Source of the DNA: a phage
Strand: one strand, 5' to 3'
Length of the DNA: 64,000 bases
Sequence record: PZ386972.1
This document shows positions 5,978-33,152 of this stretch, piece after piece. A model generated the notes under the pieces. The model made no database searches, had not been told where the DNA came from, and saw only the letters and a list, made by a program, of their open reading frames with translations. The translations under genes were made by a program, and so were the position numbers. Numbering within the stretch: the first letter of the stretch is position 1; each line of letters begins with the position of its first letter.

Positions 5978-6060
5978 ATTTATAAATCAATTATACATAA
6001 GTTTTAGCTCGAAAGCAAATAAAATAAAAGCCAGGTCGACTAGCAACCCGGCTGATTAGC

Positions 6061-7935
6061 TTATTTAGCTCGAATATCCTGATGTTTCACCCTACCCATA
6101 ACTTCATGTTGTTTGCCGGGGTTAAATGGACGAGCACCCGGATTTCCAAGATACCCACAAACTCGACGAGTTACTTCAAGAGTTTCTGGGTCATGATTAC
6201 CACAGATAGGGCACTTAAATCCATCTTCGGATGCTATTGTTTCACCTAAGAATCCACATTTACCACAAGAATCTACTGGAGTATTAATACCGAAGTAATG
6301 AACCTTACTAGCAGCATAATTAATAACCCATTCGAGTGCATCTGGGAATCGTTTCATATCCGGTAGTTCTACATAGGAAATACACCCACCAGAAGCAATC
6401 GGAGTAAAGTTAGATTCATAATCAAATTTCACGTTAGGAGCAACTTTACGTTCTACATCAAGGTGATGCGAGTTAGTATAGTATCCTTTGGACAGAATAT
6501 CTTCATGCTCCGGGAAATATTCACGATCTAGACGACAAAAACGGTCACATAGGGACTCTGATGGTGTAGCATACAGGCTATAACCTAACTTAGTTTCTTC
6601 CTTCTTCTGATCTACCCTATCCCGCATGTACTGCAGTACACGCTGAACAAACTTGATGCAGGTCTCGGACATTGTGTCTATATCTTTGCCAAACATGAAC
6701 TGTAGCATTTCATGGCAACCAATATACCCTAGAGATACAGAAGCACGGTTATAGAAATGATCGAATACGTATTCATCAGGCTCCAAGCGCAGTCCAAAGG
6801 CTCCTGACATATAGAGGATGGGTGCAGCTTTAGCTTGAATGTATTTTAAGCGATCAACTCTCCACTCCAATGCTTTTAACGCTGTATCCACACGTAGCTC
6901 AAGCAAATCAAAGAATAGGTCAATATTTCCTTCAGCTTCGATAGCAATTCTAGGCAAGTTTACAGAAACAACACCTAAGTTATTACGACCGGCAGTTTCA
7001 CCATCTTCTGTAGCAGCTAGGAATGAACGGCAGCCCATAGAAACTTTGTAGTCTCCAGTAACTTCTACAACTTTGTCATAGCTGATATAATCTGGATACA
7101 TACGTTCAGCAGTACATTTCATAGCTAACTTCTTGATGTCATAATTAACATCTCCTGGTTTCATATTTACGCCATCACGAAGCACAAATACCAGTTTCGG
7201 GAAGATAGCTGTACGTTTATTGATACCTAAACCATCCATGCGTACTTTCAGTATTGCTTTCTGTACTAGACGTGCTTCCCAAGAAGTTCCTAGACCAAAA
7301 CCAAAGGTAATAAATGGACTCTGACCATTAGAGTTGAACATCGTATTGATTTCATACTCTAGACCCTGACAAGCATCATAGACTTCTTTTTCAGTCATCT
7401 CCGTAGCCATTACTGATGCTTTGGCTTCATCCTTAGTCCAACGTTTTGCAAAGGCATGATTTTTGTCATAGGATTTACGAACATAAGGAGCTAATACCTC
7501 ATCTAATCGGTCTACAGAAGTACCACCATACTGATGGGAGCTAACCTGTGTGATAATCTGAGCTGTAATAGCCGCCGCAGTAGTAATAGAGTTTGGAGTA
7601 CTAATTTCAGCATTACCAACCTTCATACCATTCTTCAACATATCTTCCAGAGCTACCAGACAACAATTAGTCATGCCTAATGCAGCATAATCAGCATCAT
7701 GGAAATGAATATCCCCAATCATATGAGCATTTCGAATCTGAATTGGCATTTCTTCTAGAATCAGATACTTACTCAATTCACCTGCAAGCATATCCCTCTG
7801 TGTAGGGAAACGTTCTGAGGGTTTATTGGCATTATTAAACAGCAGCTCTTCATCTGCTGACCCTTCGATAATCTCTTTGCAGTTTCTAATTAACGCCTGC
7901 ATTTCTTTATACTTTAGTTCTTCATTGCGATTCAT
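6061..7935 (-). CDS. nrdD: anaerobic ribonucleoside-triphosphate reductase (class III RNR)
   Basis: 624 aa; C-terminal glycyl-radical motif RVCGYLG and Cys-rich CxxC...CxxC zinc ribbon; overall NrdD-like sequence. Confidence 0.85.
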   Translation of the reverse strand: MNRNEELKYKEMQALIRNCKEIIEGSADEELLFNNANKPSERFPTQRDMLAGELSKYLILEEMPIQIRNAHMIGDIHFHDADYAALGMTNCCLVALEDMLKNGMKVGNAEISTPNSITTAAAITAQIITQVSSHQYGGTSVDRLDEVLAPYVRKSYDKNHAFAKRWTKDEAKASVMATEMTEKEVYDACQGLEYEINTMFNSNGQSPFITFGFGLGTSWEARLVQKAILKVRMDGLGINKRTAIFPKLVFVLRDGVNMKPGDVNYDIKKLAMKCTAERMYPDYISYDKVVEVTGDYKVSMGCRSFLAATEDGETAGRNNLGVVSVNLPRIAIEAEGNIDLFFDLLELRVDTALKALEWRVDRLKYIQAKAAPILYMSGAFGLRLEPDEYVFDHFYNRASVSLGYIGCHEMLQFMFGKDIDTMSETCIKFVQRVLQYMRDRVDQKKEETKLGYSLYATPSESLCDRFCRLDREYFPEHEDILSKGYYTNSHHLDVERKVAPNVKFDYESNFTPIASGGCISYVELPDMKRFPDALEWVINYAASKVHYFGINTPVDSCGKCGFLGETIASEDGFKCPICGNHDPETLEVTRRVCGYLGNPGARPFNPGKQHEVMGRVKHQDIRAK

Positions 7936-25459: not shown

Positions 25460-25942
25460 ATGTACACTGATAGAATTGTTCAAGAAGCTGCAAACAGAGG
25501 TCTTATTGATCTGGGATCACCAGTTGATATAACTAAAGAGCTAATAACAGAGAGCCTTACGTTTGGCACAGCTAACTTTGGCCGAGATAGTAACCGTCGG
25601 TATAGCTTGAAACTATCAGCATTATCTTTTATTAAGTACAATAAGAGTATTGGAGAAAAATCAAGTTGTGGTTTTATCTACGCGATAACTAATCCAGCTT
25701 GGACTGATTATGTAAAAATTGGCATGTCTTCTGACCCAAAAACAAGATTAGCCAATTACCAGACATATTCTCCACTACGTGACTATAAGTTAATACATTG
25801 GTCATTTTGGTTTAATGCTAGAGAAGCAGAGAAAATGCTTCATAATAGCTTTCCAAAAAGAATTAATGAATGGGTAGTTTTGGACAGAAGTGTAGATGAA
25901 ACACTTGCTGATTTTAATAAACTATCTAATAAACAATTTTAA
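25460..25942 (+). CDS. T5orf172/GIY-YIG-like domain protein (homing-endonuclease-like) embedded in tRNA cluster
   Basis: GFIYAITNPAWTDYVKIGMSSDPKTRLANYQT matches the GIY-YIG-related T5orf172 signature. Confidence 0.5.
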   Translation: MYTDRIVQEAANRGLIDLGSPVDITKELITESLTFGTANFGRDSNRRYSLKLSALSFIKYNKSIGEKSSCGFIYAITNPAWTDYVKIGMSSDPKTRLANYQTYSPLRDYKLIHWSFWFNAREAEKMLHNSFPKRINEWVVLDRSVDETLADFNKLSNKQF

Positions 25943-27780: not shown

Positions 27781-28128
27781 ATGATTAATGCTAAAGAAGA
27801 GTTGTTACTTGCCCTAAAGAATACTAAGTCTGAAGTTAAGTGTATTAAGATAGAATTCGGTTATTATGGGAACAAAGAAGTTTGGATATTACCCGTAGGT
27901 TATACAGAAAAAGATATTGAAGATTTTCTAAATAATCTAGACTTCAAATATGATTCTGGTTTCGGTGGACAATTGCTTTACGGTAACGTATGGTTTACTG
28001 ATGGAACTTGGTTAGAGCGTGGTGAATATGATGGTTCTGAATGGTGGGAGTATAAGACTACACCAGCAATCCCAGAAGAATGCCGAACAATTAATGGTGA
28101 AGTAGATCGTACTTTACTATTAAATTAA
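27781..28128 (+). CDS. hypothetical protein
   Basis: ORF track. Confidence 0.45.
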   Translation: MINAKEELLLALKNTKSEVKCIKIEFGYYGNKEVWILPVGYTEKDIEDFLNNLDFKYDSGFGGQLLYGNVWFTDGTWLERGEYDGSEWWEYKTTPAIPEECRTINGEVDRTLLLN

Positions 28129-28250
28129 CAAAATTTCAGTGCAGAACACGGAGCTAGCAATTCGGAAGTGCTGACTCATGATAGGCTGCCTATGTACTTG
28201 CGAAGCGGTCGTGTCCAAGACTCGGACTCTTGCACTGAAAACAATCAAAC

Positions 28251-28368
28251 ATTCTAGCGTGGTTGATGGGGAAACCAGCTTGGCTAGGGCAGAAGCTCGT
28301 TCGATTCGAGTGAAAGAATGGTTCTCGTAAGTCCGCACAAGTGATAACAGGTTCGAGTCCTGTCTAGA
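28251..28368 (+). ncRNA. 118-nt tRNA-like RNA: perfect 7-bp acceptor-like stem and canonical T-arm, no encoded CCA
   Basis: 5' ATTCTAG pairs with 3' CTAGAAT; T-arm ACAGG-TTCGAGT-CCTGT; internal second TTCGATT hairpin. Confidence 0.35.
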
Positions 28369-28383
28369 ATGACACTATAAAGT

Positions 28384-28494
28384 TTACTTATTATGTAGGT
28401 TCCGATAGATCGGCGGGTCTATTCTGGCATTTAAGAGAGGTCTCGCAAACTTCTTTGTCAGCCGTGGGGTTGATAGCCTCCAGGTGGCCTACAC
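28384..28494 (+). ncRNA. about 110-nt structured RNA closed by terminal helix
   Basis: 5' TGTAGGT pairs with 3' GCCTACA; internal hairpins; no ORF. Confidence 0.3.
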
Positions 28495-28520
28495 AATAAG
28501 TAAATTTATTAAAAATTCAT

Positions 28521-28549
28521 TTGCTATTCTGCTTAATTATCTGTATAAT
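28521..28549 (+). promoter_or_regulatory. T5-type early promoter
   Basis: TTGCTA-17-TATAAT. Confidence 0.6.
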
Positions 28550-28579
28550 ATATTTTATAAAGTGAGTTAACAAAATTAA

Positions 28580-28652
28580 CAGTGCGTAGCGCAGTTGGTA
28601 GCGTGGGAGCCTTGGATGCTTCGGGTCGCAGGTTCGAGTCCTGCCGCACTGA
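28580..28652 (+). tRNA. tRNA-Pro (anticodon TGG)
   Basis: Acceptor CAGTGCG/CGCACTG, D-arm GCGC...GCGT, loop CTTGGAT, T-arm GCAGG-TTCGAGT-CCTGC, CCA encoded. Confidence 0.75.
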
Positions 28653-29565: not shown

Positions 29566-29653
29566 GGAAGAGCAAATCGAATTGGCGACGAAAACCGCTT
29601 GGAAAGTGGCTGACTGGTAAAACGGCTTGAGAGTTCAAATCTCTCCTCTTCCG
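29566..29653 (+). tRNA. tRNA-Ser (anticodon GGA), class II
   Basis: Acceptor GGAAGAG/CTCTTCC, loop TTGGAAA, long variable arm, T-arm GAGAG-TTCAAAT-CTCTC, CCA encoded. Confidence 0.7.
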
Positions 29654-29668
29654 CCAAACAATTTATAT

Positions 29669-29760
29669 GGTAGGTCAATCCAATGGCTGGCGCTGGACTC
29701 CGACTTGAAATCGGTTGATCGTAGTGATACGGTGTAAGGGTTCGATCCCCTTACCTACCT
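29669..29760 (+). tRNA. tRNA-Ser (anticodon TGA), class II
   Basis: Acceptor GGTAGGT/ACCTACC, loop CTTGAAA, long variable arm, T-arm AAGGG-TTCGATC-CCCTT, CCA encoded. Confidence 0.7.
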
Positions 29761-29764
29761 CCAA

Positions 29765-29910
29765 GTCTTGAAGTATGCCGGAATCGGTAGACGGGGCTGC
29801 CTAAAAGGTTTATAGGGAACATCCACTCCCTACAACATACCTCATAAAGCGGCTGAGATAAATGGTCTATCTCGTGAAGGTTCAAGTCCTTCTGCTTCTT
29901 GATACATCTA
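29765..29910 (+). ncRNA. about 145-nt structured segment with D-arm-like and T-arm-like hairpins but no complete cloverleaf
   Basis: GAGATA-AATGGTC-TATCTC and GAAGG-TTCAAGT-CCTTC hairpins; no CCA. Confidence 0.25.
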
Positions 29911-30014
29911 TGGCTCAAAGTGTAACGGTGCTATTTGATGCTCTTAGTAAGACTTTCCCGACATGCGTTCGGGAGTAAGCTGCTAAGGCTAGAATAGAAG
30001 AGTTTCTGAGAGCC

Positions 30015-30134
30015 GCCACAATTGAAAATTCGTACTCGTCTTGAGCTGCGTGCAATAGGAGATAACTTGATTAGTATTCTAGAACATGCTAATTGAGGAT
30101 GGTTTCGCTAACCCTGCGAGTTTTCAATTGTGGC
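30015..30134 (+). ncRNA. structured element closed by a perfect 14-bp helix whose 3' strand overlaps the 5' end of tRNA-His
   Basis: GCCACAATTGAAAA at about 30015-30028 is the exact reverse complement of TTTTCAATTGTGGC at about 30121-30134. Confidence 0.4.
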
Positions 30135-32702: not shown

Positions 32703-33071
32703 ATGAAAGCATATCAAAATCTTAAATCTGGCGTAATTAACCTTGTTCATGAAAATCAGATTATTCAGCTATACTCCGACAACGGTGAACTTAAACAGAA
32801 AGTTCTAGTTGAAGATCTAGAAGGTATCACACCACAATTCGATCCCGAAGCCTTCCGTGAAGTCAAAGTGGAAGTCGCCCCTCAAATCGAAGGTGGTCAG
32901 CACCTAAATGTCAATGTGTTAAGCCGTGATCAGCTTTTGGATGCGCAGAAACATCCTGAAAAATATCCTCAGTTGACCATCCGTGTCTCTGGCTACGCTG
33001 TTCGATTTAACGCACTGACTCGTGAACAACAGAACGACGTTATTAGTCGTACATTTACTCAGGCGATGTAA
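32703..33071 (+). CDS. autonomous glycyl-radical cofactor protein (GrcA/YfiD-like)
   Basis: C-terminal [27 protein letters not shown] matches the glycyl-radical domain signature of PFL/GrcA. Confidence 0.6.
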
Positions 33072-33152
33072 TGGGGTTTGGGTACGATTTCTCCGAACTA
33101 CGTGAGGTAGTCGAGCAAACTCCATTTATCTCCCAAGTTTTAGGAGAAATGT

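What the first reader, a model, noticed from the sequence alone, without database searches (positions are those of the whole stretch)
28251..28368. 118-nt tRNA-like RNA with perfect acceptor-like stem and T-arm but no CCA and no recognisable anticodon arm
5' ATTCTAG pairs perfectly with 3' CTAGAAT, immediately preceded by ACAGG-TTCGAGT-CCTGT (canonical T-arm), with a second TTCGATT hairpin inside. This looks like a tRNA-derived or tRNA-mimicking RNA (tmRNA-like tRNA domain, intron-containing or permuted tRNA, or a processing decoy) rather than a standard tRNA.
Basis: seen in the sequence. Interest (0 to 1): 0.6.

Follow-up and report, generated by a model that had tools for sequence, protein, structure and literature searches.

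The report
Phage T5 "RNA 2": two-headed tRNA-like RNA
This is a Salmonella-phage copy of phage T5's long-annotated but still unexplained stable "RNA 2": a genuine tRNA cloverleaf whose anticodon loop is replaced by a highly conserved 55-nt folded domain, and the same RNA turns up in tRNA gene clusters of several unrelated phage families.

Summary
Window 28251-28371 (+) has a perfect 7-bp acceptor stem abutting a canonical T-arm, an internal TTCGATT hairpin and no CCA; chance expectation is 0.003 per window. It is the orthologue of the gene annotated as misc_RNA "rna2" in phage T5 (AY692264), so it is already known as an entity; its function is not known. A covariance model finds 34 copies at 80-136 bits, against 36 bits or less for ordinary tRNAs. 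They occur in T5-like phages, Klebsiella Sugarlandvirus, T4-like Acinetobacter phages (Acj9, 133), other large viral contigs and a 47-tRNA array. Covariation supports all the helices. Between lineages the frame keeps only its pairing (26-38% identity), while the insert keeps its sequence (73%). The insert extends the anticodon stem as a 4+3+5-bp stack capped by a T-loop, which resembles a second tRNA "top half". It is not a tmRNA, not a permuted or intron-containing tRNA, and not a detectable relative of T4 rnaC/rnaD. Most likely it is a non-decoding tRNA-derived RNA: the frame gives tRNA-type processing and stability, and the insert is the working part, probably binding a factor that reads tRNA top halves. 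That last step is inference.

The parts
28251..28371 (+). Whole RNA gene: orthologue of T5 misc_RNA 'rna2' (the T5 annotation maps to 28250-28374)
   Evidence: Alignment to AY692264; covariance-model hit of 134-135 bits
28251..28257 (+). Acceptor stem, 5' strand (ATTCTAG)
   Evidence: Pairs 7/7 with 28364-28370. The 6 acceptor pairs included in the model (positions 2-7) all show changes on both sides across the family
28260..28277 (+). D-arm: stem 28260-28263 / 28274-28277, loop containing GGGG
   Evidence: 4/4 pairs show changes on both sides. Reduced to a GG-containing loop in the Acinetobacter T4-like members
28278..28282 (+). Anticodon-stem equivalent, 5' strand (GCTTG)
   Evidence: Pairs with 28338-28342; 5/5 pairs covary and 100% of cells are paired
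28283..28337 (+). Conserved 55-nt insert that replaces the anticodon loop
   Evidence: 21 of 55 positions invariant in 20 lineages; mean pairwise identity 0.73 against 0.26-0.43 for the frame stems
28287..28290 (+). Helix Pa, 5' strand (GGGC); pairs with 28331-28334 (GTCC). The third pair, G39.U82, is a G.U wobble in 33 of 34 copies
   Evidence: Y40-R81 covaries (C-G 17, U-A 11). Helices Pa+Pc score 0.221 against 0.076 in shuffles, 0/500. Present in both the free and the constrained MFE folds
28292..28294 (+). Helix Pc, 5' strand (GAA); pairs with 28324-28326 (CTC)
   Evidence: G42-C76 is invariant. Pair 43-75 shows all four Watson-Crick combinations (A-U 22, U-A 7, C-G 2, G-C 2). Pair 44-74 is G-C in only 8 of 34 copies (A.C in this window)
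28295..28311 (+). Internal T-arm (T1): stem 28295-28299 / 28307-28311, loop TTCGATT at 28300-28306
   Evidence: 4/5 pairs covary; the loop is nearly invariant. The single-sequence MFE fold missed it
28312..28323 (+). 12-nt purine-rich strand GAAAGAATGGTT joining T1 to Pc; GG at 28320-28321 is invariant
   Evidence: Invariant positions. Docking of the GG on the T1 loop, as a D-loop docks on a T-loop, is an inference
28327..28330 (+). Internal loop R-T-A-A opposite A41 (28291)
   Evidence: T78, A79 and A80 are invariant
28338..28342 (+). Anticodon-stem equivalent, 3' strand (CAAGT)
28347..28363 (+). Canonical 3' T-arm (T2): ACAGG TTCGAGT CCTGT
   Evidence: 3/5 pairs covary and the other two are invariant G-C
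28364..28371 (+). Acceptor 3' strand CTAGAAT plus discriminator G; followed by ACA, not CCA
   Evidence: By eye, the discriminator differs between lineages (G, U or A)

Best explanation
Shown: the element is the orthologue of phage T5's stable 'RNA 2'. It belongs to a conserved family of tRNA-derived RNAs found in tRNA gene clusters. It has a bona fide tRNA frame: 7-bp acceptor stem, D-arm, 5-bp anticodon stem and T-arm. In place of the anticodon loop it carries a 55-nt domain that extends the anticodon stem coaxially: internal loop, 4-bp Pa, internal loop, 3-bp Pc, then a 5-bp T-arm with a canonical T-loop. Pc's third pair is A.C in this copy. A 12-nt GG-containing strand emerges at the 7/5 junction. 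In dimensions this is a second copy of a tRNA acceptor/T-arm 'top half'. Inferred: (1) it does not decode, because it has no anticodon loop. It is probably not charged, because it has no encoded CCA although every tRNA called in the window has one, and the discriminator varies between lineages. (2) The frame is there for biogenesis and stability: RNase P and 3' trimming excise it from the polycistronic tRNA transcript. In lineages without an acceptor stem, flanking tRNA genes appear to supply that processing (both flanks in phage 133, upstream in Acj9 and L051). (3) The working part is the sequence-conserved insert. Most likely it binds a protein or RNP that reads the tRNA elbow or acceptor-T helix, acting as a non-consumable competitor or adaptor in the phage-host conflict over tRNAs. 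The target is unknown.
For: Identity: 94% mean column identity to T5 across 28100-28580, with T5 'rna2' mapping to 28250-28374. Family: 34 copies at 80-136 bits against 36 bits or less for real tRNAs. Members occur in Demerecviridae, Sugarlandvirus, Straboviridae (Acj9, 133), other viral contigs and a 47-tRNA array. Structure: 93.2% of cells paired against 69.2% in shuffles; covariation 0.620 against 0.176 (0/500) and 0.144 or less for slid registers. RNAalifold independently recovers five helices. The interior helices Pa/Pc are supported by covariation and by energy. Frame is a real cloverleaf: with the insert swapped for a 7-nt loop, ARAGORN calls a standard 73-nt tRNA. Division of labour: insert 73% identical with 21/55 positions invariant, stems 26-38% identical; for L033 only the insert matches other phages. 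No CCA here against 22/22 tRNAs in the window. No promoter directly upstream; a strong promoter lies downstream at 28521-28549. The copy in phage 133 is flanked on both sides by tRNA genes.
Against: No expression, end-mapping or binding data were available to me, so stability and the ends rest on the T5 GenBank annotation. The single-sequence folding energy is not significant. The interior model is not unique: RNAalifold prefers an invariant UGG/CCR pairing. The alignments were fitted to models, which inflates pair counts. No protein gene is consistently linked to the RNA, so no partner is indicated. The host CCA-adding enzyme could still add CCA, so charging is not excluded. The decoy or adaptor role is inferred from shape alone.
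Confidence: 0.5

Rival explanations
1. The tRNA frame is a carrier, as in the best explanation, but the insert is an aptamer-like or catalytic module. On this view it binds a small molecule or another RNA rather than imitating a tRNA top half.
For: The insert is compact and conserved in sequence, with conserved internal loops and an invariant single-stranded GG/TAA. It has no Rfam match, so it would be an undescribed motif.
Against: It contains a textbook T-arm with a canonical T-loop and a 7+5-bp stack of tRNA dimensions. No conserved gene lies downstream for it to regulate. There is no self-cleavage signature.
Confidence: 0.15
2. It is a cis-acting punctuation element of the tRNA operon. On this view a tRNA-shaped handle recruits RNase P or RNase E to process or stabilise the neighbouring ORF mRNA and tRNAs, with no function of its own in trans.
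For: It sits at the end of a transcription unit between an ORF (27781-28128) and the next promoter, among other structured elements. In phage 133 it lies directly between two tRNA genes.
Against: Punctuation would need only the frame, yet the frame sequence drifts freely while the insert is 73% conserved across phage families. T5 annotates it as a discrete RNA species.
Confidence: 0.12
3. It is a functional, chargeable special tRNA. Either it is used as it stands after CCA addition, or a short unconventional intron is removed to give a decoder.
For: The acceptor, D and T arms are perfect. The frame is called as a tRNA once the insert is removed, and ARAGORN at a relaxed threshold calls an intron-containing tRNA.
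Against: No anticodon loop. The residue at the U33-equivalent position is C in most lineages (by eye). The 'intron' is the most conserved part. No CCA against 22/22 tRNAs in the window. The discriminator varies between lineages, and the Acinetobacter-phage members lack a good acceptor stem. From general knowledge, no bacterial mechanism is known that splices a 55-nt tRNA intron.
Confidence: 0.08
4. It is a decaying tRNA pseudogene disrupted by an insertion.
For: tRNA detectors do not call it.
Against: Compensatory changes maintain every helix across distant phage families, and the insert sequence is conserved.
Confidence: 0.02
5. It is protein-coding (several GenBank records place hypothetical-protein CDSs over it), or it is a tmRNA-like tag-encoding RNA.
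For: ORFs of 50 aa (+) and 72 aa (-) overlap it. CDSs are annotated over it in PP735124 and Acj9. By eye, the window sequence has a mini-ORF running from GCA to TAA.
Against: Near-identical phages differ by 1-nt indels in the D-loop (L029, L077, L001, L031), and the changes preserve base pairs. By eye, the mini-ORF is broken in UTK0010. ARAGORN finds no tmRNA.
Confidence: 0.02

Closest known systems
Phage T5 stable RNA 'RNA 2' (misc_RNA rna2, GenBank AY692264, 32962-33086)
   Same: Same gene: syntenic (tRNA-Asp ... ORF ... rna2 - rnaIV - promoter P13a - tRNA-Pro/tRNA-fMet), and only 5 substitutions across the 121-nt RNA.
   Different: Nothing of substance differs. The window's closest genome (Salmonella phage SCF) annotates hypothetical proteins here instead. 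I could not retrieve a published function or structure for RNA 2.
Phage T4 species 1 and species 2 RNAs (rnaC, rnaD)
   Same: Small stable RNAs encoded in a phage tRNA cluster and abutting tRNA genes. rnaC has a 3' T-arm and, by eye, an acceptor-like closing stem with two U.U mismatches. Their roles are still described as unknown.
   Different: Not detectably homologous: the 3' part of rnaC scores 15.8 bits (E about 0.35) and rnaD gives no hit (also not found with R2). The resemblance at the 5' end of rnaC (UCGAUUCGAG...CGUAAG) falls in rnaC's apparent acceptor strand, not in a T-loop (by eye).
Engineered 'tRNA scaffolds' for expressing recombinant RNA in E. coli (Ponchon and Dardel; from my own knowledge)
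   Same: A structured RNA replaces the anticodon loop of a tRNA. The tRNA body then confers processing and resistance to nucleases. This is the same architecture as found here.
   Different: Those are man-made. Here the arrangement is natural and conserved, and the cargo is itself tRNA-like.
tRNA-like domain of tmRNA
   Same: An acceptor-like helix with G.U at the third pair, a T-arm, and a stem-less GG-containing D-loop analogue. These resemble features of the insert.
   Different: No tag reading frame and no pseudoknots, and ARAGORN is negative. In the insert the helix is interrupted on the 3' strand rather than the 5' strand, and the insert has no free ends.
Bacterial Y RNA YrlA, and the mascRNA and TMER type of tRNA-like modules (from my own knowledge)
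   Same: Non-decoding tRNA mimics that use tRNA-processing or tRNA-binding machinery.
   Different: No Rfam hit even at E up to 10. In YrlA the ends lie on the anticodon-stem side. mascRNA and TMER are eukaryotic or herpesviral and serve as 3'-end or processing signals.

Membership tests
T5 'RNA 2' (misc_RNA rna2) orthologue group | Sequence identity and synteny with the annotated T5 gene | tested here: met
   T5 rna2 maps to 28250-28374 by alignment A1. The flanking rnaIV and promoter P13a are conserved.
Canonical tRNA (Rfam RF00005 / ARAGORN) | 7-bp acceptor stem, D-arm with GG, and T-arm with a TTCRA loop abutting the acceptor stem | tested here: met
   The frame is called as a 73-nt tRNA when the insert is replaced by 7 nt.
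Canonical tRNA (Rfam RF00005 / ARAGORN) | 5-bp anticodon stem closed by a 7-nt loop with U33 and an anticodon | tested here: not met
   The stem is present but encloses 55 nt. There is no Rfam tRNA hit even at E up to 10, and ARAGORN is negative.
Canonical tRNA (Rfam RF00005 / ARAGORN) | 3' CCA (encoded by all tRNA genes called in this window) | tested here: not met
   G-ACA here against CCA in 22/22 tRNAs. Post-transcriptional CCA addition cannot be tested with these tools.
Intron-containing tRNA | Removing the insert leaves a canonical anticodon loop; the intron is of a known self-splicing or enzyme-spliced type | tested here: not met
   ARAGORN -i is negative at the default threshold and gives only a sub-threshold call at 80%. 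The U33-equivalent is C in most lineages (by eye). At 55 nt with no Rfam hit, it is not a group I intron. The insert is more conserved than the 'exons'.
Permuted or split tRNA | The 3' half is encoded upstream of the 5' half | tested here: not met
   The element order is the normal one.
tmRNA | tRNA-like domain plus a conserved tag reading frame with a resume codon, plus pseudoknots | tested here: not met
   ARAGORN finds no tmRNA and Rfam has no hit. By eye, the mini-ORF is not conserved. The covariation is explained without a pseudoknot.
T4 rnaC / rnaD | Detectable sequence and structure homology | tested here: not met
   15.8 bits (E about 0.35) for the 3' part of rnaC and nothing for rnaD. 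No hit below E = 1e-6 with model R2.
Any curated Rfam family (including YrlA, mascRNA, tRNA-Sec and ribozymes) | Covariance-model match | tested here: not met
   Only one chance-level miRNA hit in 28100-28560, and it lies on the neighbouring element.
tRNA-Ala / AlaRS-type acceptor mimic (applies to the insert) | G.U wobble at the third pair of an acceptor-like helix that begins G-C, G-C, followed by a purine 'discriminator' | tested here: inconclusive
   G37-C84 in 29 of 34 copies, G38-C83 in 34 of 34, G39.U82 in 33 of 34, followed by R85. But the helix has no free 3' end, and AlaRS binding cannot be tested here.

The most novel reading that the evidence does not exclude
The insert is a deliberate mimic of a tRNA 'top half': a 7+5-bp acceptor/T-arm stack with an elbow. 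It carries a G.U at its third pair in 33 of 34 copies, like the G3.U70 identity element of tRNA-Ala and tmRNA. Because it has no free end, it would be a dead-end ligand. It could titrate or recruit a reader of tRNA top halves: AlaRS, RNase P, the CCA-adding enzyme, or a host toxin or defence enzyme that attacks tRNA acceptor ends. That would define a widespread, undescribed class of phage RNA effectors that travels with tRNA gene arrays across phage families.
Probability: 0.15. Interest if true: 0.8.

Novelty: already known. Interest (0 to 1): 0.5.

Why it matters
T5, like T4, has long been annotated as encoding small stable RNAs beside its tRNAs, and for T4's RNAC/RNAD the role is still described as unknown. 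The T5 tRNA region is currently of interest because single phage tRNAs there neutralise host tRNA-cleaving defences such as PARIS. This work shows that 'RNA 2' is not peculiar to T5. It is a family shared by Demerecviridae, T4-like Acinetobacter phages, other large phages and a bacterial-size tRNA array. Its tRNA frame drifts while its insert stays fixed. This gives a concrete structural model and specific mutations with which to test function. The family is absent from Rfam, and several GenBank records annotate protein genes over it, so a curated model would also improve phage annotation.

Tried and rejected
- **Single-sequence MFE fold.** It gives a cloverleaf but mis-pairs the interior and misses T-arm 1, with z = -0.47. 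Energy alone is uninformative here.
- **'Anticodon-arm-like hairpin' P5 (69-73/81-85, loop CNCRUAA) plus a pseudoknot to J1.** This was my first reading of the 43-75 covariation. I rejected it because P5 shows no covariation above shuffles (118/500) and is energetically worse than no pairing at all. The nested Pa/Pc helices explain the same covariation.
- **Covariation between positions 77 and 86.** It is probably a single clade effect.
- **tmRNA-like mini-ORF AEARSIRVKEWFS (my reading of the sequence).** By eye it is not conserved.
- **Homology to T4 rnaC, suggested by UCGAUUCGAG...CGUAAG.** The covariance model does not support it.
- **Alternative acceptor pairing of AGAAU (28316-28320) with the 5' end.** By eye it is not conserved in Sugarland.
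- **A conserved neighbouring protein gene.** None is universal. A YqeY-domain gene occurs in only two lineages.
- **A second pattern scan.** It returned 108 stretches; of the 56 new loci listed and screened with R2, only one was a new member.
- **Host copies.** No copy exists in 5,426 complete E. coli genomes. Most hits in the bacterial genome collection were chance matches inside coding sequence.
- **Literature searches.** They found no open-access description of T5 RNA 2's structure or function.

Full report
**What is in the sequence**

The window is the tRNA-gene region of a T5-like phage. It is 100% identical over 28100-28560 to Salmonella phage SCF and carries 22 ARAGORN-called tRNA genes on the + strand.

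At the reported site:
- ATTCTAG lies at 28251-28257 and pairs perfectly with CTAGAAT at 28364-28370.
- The 3' strand is directly preceded by ACAGG-TTCGAGT-CCTGT (28347-28363).
- A second hairpin, (G)CTCG-TTCGATT-CGAG(T), lies at 28295-28311.
- The next bases are G-ACA.

Otherwise the description is accurate. All 22 tRNA genes called in the window encode CCA, so the missing CCA is a real departure from this phage's own tRNAs.

The strict motif (perfect 7-bp stem + abutting perfect 5-bp T-stem + TTCRANN loop) occurs nine times in the window. Eight occurrences are tRNAs or tRNA-like genes and the ninth is this element. Simulated windows give 0.003. ARAGORN and Rfam call nothing here, even at E up to 10. 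Folding energy alone is not significant (z = -0.47).

**Identity**

The curated T5 record AY692264 annotates several misc_RNA genes in its tRNA region. Aligning that stretch to the window gives 94% mean column identity. It places T5 'rna2' (32962-33086) on window 28250-28374 and T5 'rnaIV' on 28393-28495. Promoter P13a follows.

The finding is therefore the orthologue of T5's 'RNA 2'. No open-access paper I could search describes its structure or function. The T5 tRNA region tolerates large deletions in viable mutants.

**A family that crosses phage families**

BLAST finds the element in about 480 phage records, down to 76-78% identity in Klebsiella Sugarlandvirus.

Pattern scans of the viral, genome and metagenome collections, followed by covariance-model searches, give 34 copies scoring 80-136 bits. 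There is then a clean gap to ordinary tRNAs at 36 bits or less. Those match only the outer frame, with the insert deleted.

Members include:
- T5-like Demerecviridae;
- Sugarlandvirus;
- the T4-like Straboviridae phages Acj9 and 133, with relatives in ZZ1 and Henu6;
- viral contigs of 28, 86, 164 and 167 kb, and a 248-kb metagenomic contig;
- a copy inside an array of 47 tRNA genes on a 1.46-Mb metagenomic contig.

Most copies sit in or next to tRNA gene clusters; L033 has no tRNA gene on the 10 kb of DNA held, and L040 has one about 1.4 kb away. None is present in 5,426 complete E. coli genomes.

**Structure**

On the model-fitted alignment of all 34 copies:
- 93.2% of cells form standard pairs, against 69.2% in shuffles.
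- The covariation score is 0.620, against 0.176 in shuffles (0/500) and 0.144 or less for slid registers.

Double-sided changes occur in all 6 modelled acceptor pairs, 4/4 D-stem pairs, 5/5 pairs of the anticodon-stem equivalent, 4/5 pairs of the internal T-arm and 3/5 pairs of the 3' T-arm. The acceptor stems of different lineages are unrelated in sequence (ATTCTAG, TACGGGG, GACTTTG, GATTGAA, ACTGACC, GGGCGGG). RNAalifold independently recovers these five helices.

These alignments were fitted to the models, which favours the modelled pairs. However, the same compensations were visible in plain MAFFT alignments.

When positions 33-87 are replaced by a 7-nt loop, ARAGORN calls a standard 73-nt tRNA at default settings. 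On the native sequence it finds nothing with introns allowed, and only at an 80% threshold does it report a tRNA with a 48-nt 'intron'. So the frame is a true cloverleaf, and the anomaly is confined to the anticodon loop.

**The insert**

An unbiased scan of all column pairs found that position 43 (28293) covaries with position 75 (28325) through all four Watson-Crick combinations. These are flanked by the invariant pair G42-C76.

I first read this as a pseudoknot onto a hairpin (69-73/81-85). That hairpin shows no covariation above shuffles (118/500) and is energetically worse than no pairing.

The nested alternative is Pa (37-40/81-84) plus Pc (42-44/74-76):
- Its covariation score is 0.221, against 0.076 in shuffles (0/500).
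- This held on an alignment fitted to the rival model.
- Pa appears both in the free MFE fold and in the MFE fold constrained to the five proven helices (-30.2 kcal/mol).
- RNAalifold instead prefers an invariant UGG/CCR pairing, so the interior model is favoured but not proven.

In the favoured model the anticodon stem continues as follows:
1. an internal loop;
2. Pa, 4 bp;
3. an internal loop (A41 opposite R-U-A-A);
4. Pc, 3 bp (the third pair, 44-74, is G-C in only 8 of 34 copies and A.C in this window);
5. T-arm 1, 5 bp, with an almost invariant UUCGAUU loop.

A 12-nt strand with an invariant GG joins T-arm 1 back to Pc. Seven plus five stacked pairs capped by a T-loop, with a GG-bearing strand leaving at the 7/5 junction, match the dimensions of a tRNA acceptor/T-arm 'top half'. 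The third pair of Pa is G.U in 33 of 34 copies, after G-C and G-C, and the helix is followed by a purine.

**Division of labour**

Across 20 lineages:

| Region | Mean pairwise identity |
|---|---|
| Insert (21 of 55 positions invariant) | 0.73 |
| Acceptor strands | 0.26-0.28 |
| Anticodon-stem strands | 0.38 |
| D-arm | 0.43 |

(All.)

For L033, only the insert matches anything in the phage collection. The Acinetobacter T4-like members reduce the D-arm to a GG loop and have a weak or absent acceptor stem. The phage 133 copy is flanked on both sides by tRNA genes, and the Acj9 and L051 copies directly follow one. By eye, the discriminator varies (G, U, A), and of the copies I inspected only Sugarland's is followed directly by CCA.

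**Mechanism**

Shown: this is a conserved, structured, tRNA-derived RNA without an anticodon loop.

Inferred:
- It does not decode and is probably not charged.
- The frame provides tRNA-type excision from the polycistronic transcript and stability. There is no promoter directly upstream, and the strong one lies downstream at 28521-28549.
- The insert is the effector. It most likely engages something that reads tRNA elbows or acceptor-T helices, as a competitor or adaptor that is not consumed.

No protein gene is consistently linked to the RNA. A YqeY/GatB-tail-like gene, which from general knowledge is a tRNA-binding domain, lies just upstream in two lineages only.

Rivals:
- an aptamer or ribozyme cargo on a tRNA carrier;
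- a purely cis-acting processing signal;
- a chargeable special or intron-containing tRNA;
- a pseudogene;
- a coding region or tmRNA.

The last three are contradicted by the covariation, by 1-nt indels between near-identical phages, by the ARAGORN results, and by the insert being the most conserved part.

**Comparison with known RNAs, and verdict**

It is T5 RNA 2. The nearest analogues are T4's RNAC and RNAD, which also sit in a tRNA cluster and whose roles are still described as unknown. The model does not detect them as relatives (15.8 bits with E about 0.35 for the 3' part of rnaC; nothing for rnaD). Architecturally it matches the engineered 'tRNA scaffold' idea, and its insert shares some features with the tRNA-like domain of tmRNA.

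As an entity it is already known. What this work adds:
- the breadth of the family;
- the covariation-supported structure;
- the drift of the frame against the constancy of the insert;
- a testable 'second top half' reading.

Interest is moderate (0.5). It is an old orphan RNA in a genome region of current interest, and it now has specific experiments attached.

Noticed in passing
window 28133-28243: Another structured element lies directly upstream of RNA 2. It has a long closing stem (TTTCAGTGCAG / CTTGCACTGAAA) and a hairpin GTCC-AAGACTC-GGAC in the T-arm position; fold z = -2.1. It is nearly identical in T5 but is not annotated in AY692264. It is absent in mar003J3-type phages, where tRNA-Lys abuts RNA 2.
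   Followed up: partly
window 28393-28495 (extended stem 28380-28506): Homologue of T5 'rnaIV'. It is a very stable long-stem structure (-49.4 kcal/mol, z = -5.1). A strong promoter-like site, TTGCTA-17-TATAAT at 28521-28549, follows it and corresponds to T5 P13a.
   Followed up: partly
window 29566-29652 and 29669-29759: Two tRNA-like genes with a perfect 7-bp acceptor stem and an abutting canonical T-arm; 29669-29759 ends in an encoded CCA. Neither ARAGORN nor Rfam calls them. By eye they look like class II (long variable arm) tRNAs with Ser-type loops. The second has no counterpart in the aligned stretch of T5 st0.
   Followed up: partly
window 29770-29900 and 29900-30129: Homologues of T5 RNA1, RNAI and RNAIII. 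RNA1 also has a tRNA-like frame (T-arm GAAGG-TTCAAGT-CCTTC) and gives a weak full-length hit to the RNA 2 model (14.5 bits). T5-like phages may therefore carry several 'tRNA frame plus insert' RNAs.
   Followed up: partly
L033:3068-3508 and L040:10551-11000 (also L060:247-696): A YqeY/GatB-tail-like protein gene (PF09424, E = 6e-16 and 3e-18) lies 200-470 nt upstream of the RNA in two unrelated lineages. T5-likes have no equivalent next to the RNA.
   Followed up: partly
L058 (1.46-Mb metagenomic contig Ga0308158_10000004): 47 tRNA genes lie within 8.3 kb, with a copy of the RNA inside the array at 6021-6141. The family is therefore not confined to recognisable phage genomes.
   Followed up: no
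L051:7053-7127, L009:5451-5523, L038:6751-6823: ARAGORN calls 'tRNA-Pyl(cta)', that is, amber-suppressor-like tRNAs, in the tRNA clusters of the T4-like members. In L051 it directly abuts the element.
   Followed up: no
GenBank PP735124 (the window's genome) and HM004124 Acj9p148 (L165:469-699): Hypothetical-protein CDSs are annotated over the RNA, and in Acj9 also over the 3' end of tRNA-Gly. These are probably mis-annotations.
   Followed up: partly
window 25460-25942: An ORF with T5orf172/MUG113 domains lies among the tRNA genes (E about 1e-8). It is related to the gene just downstream of the RNA in Klebsiella phage Sugarland.
   Followed up: no
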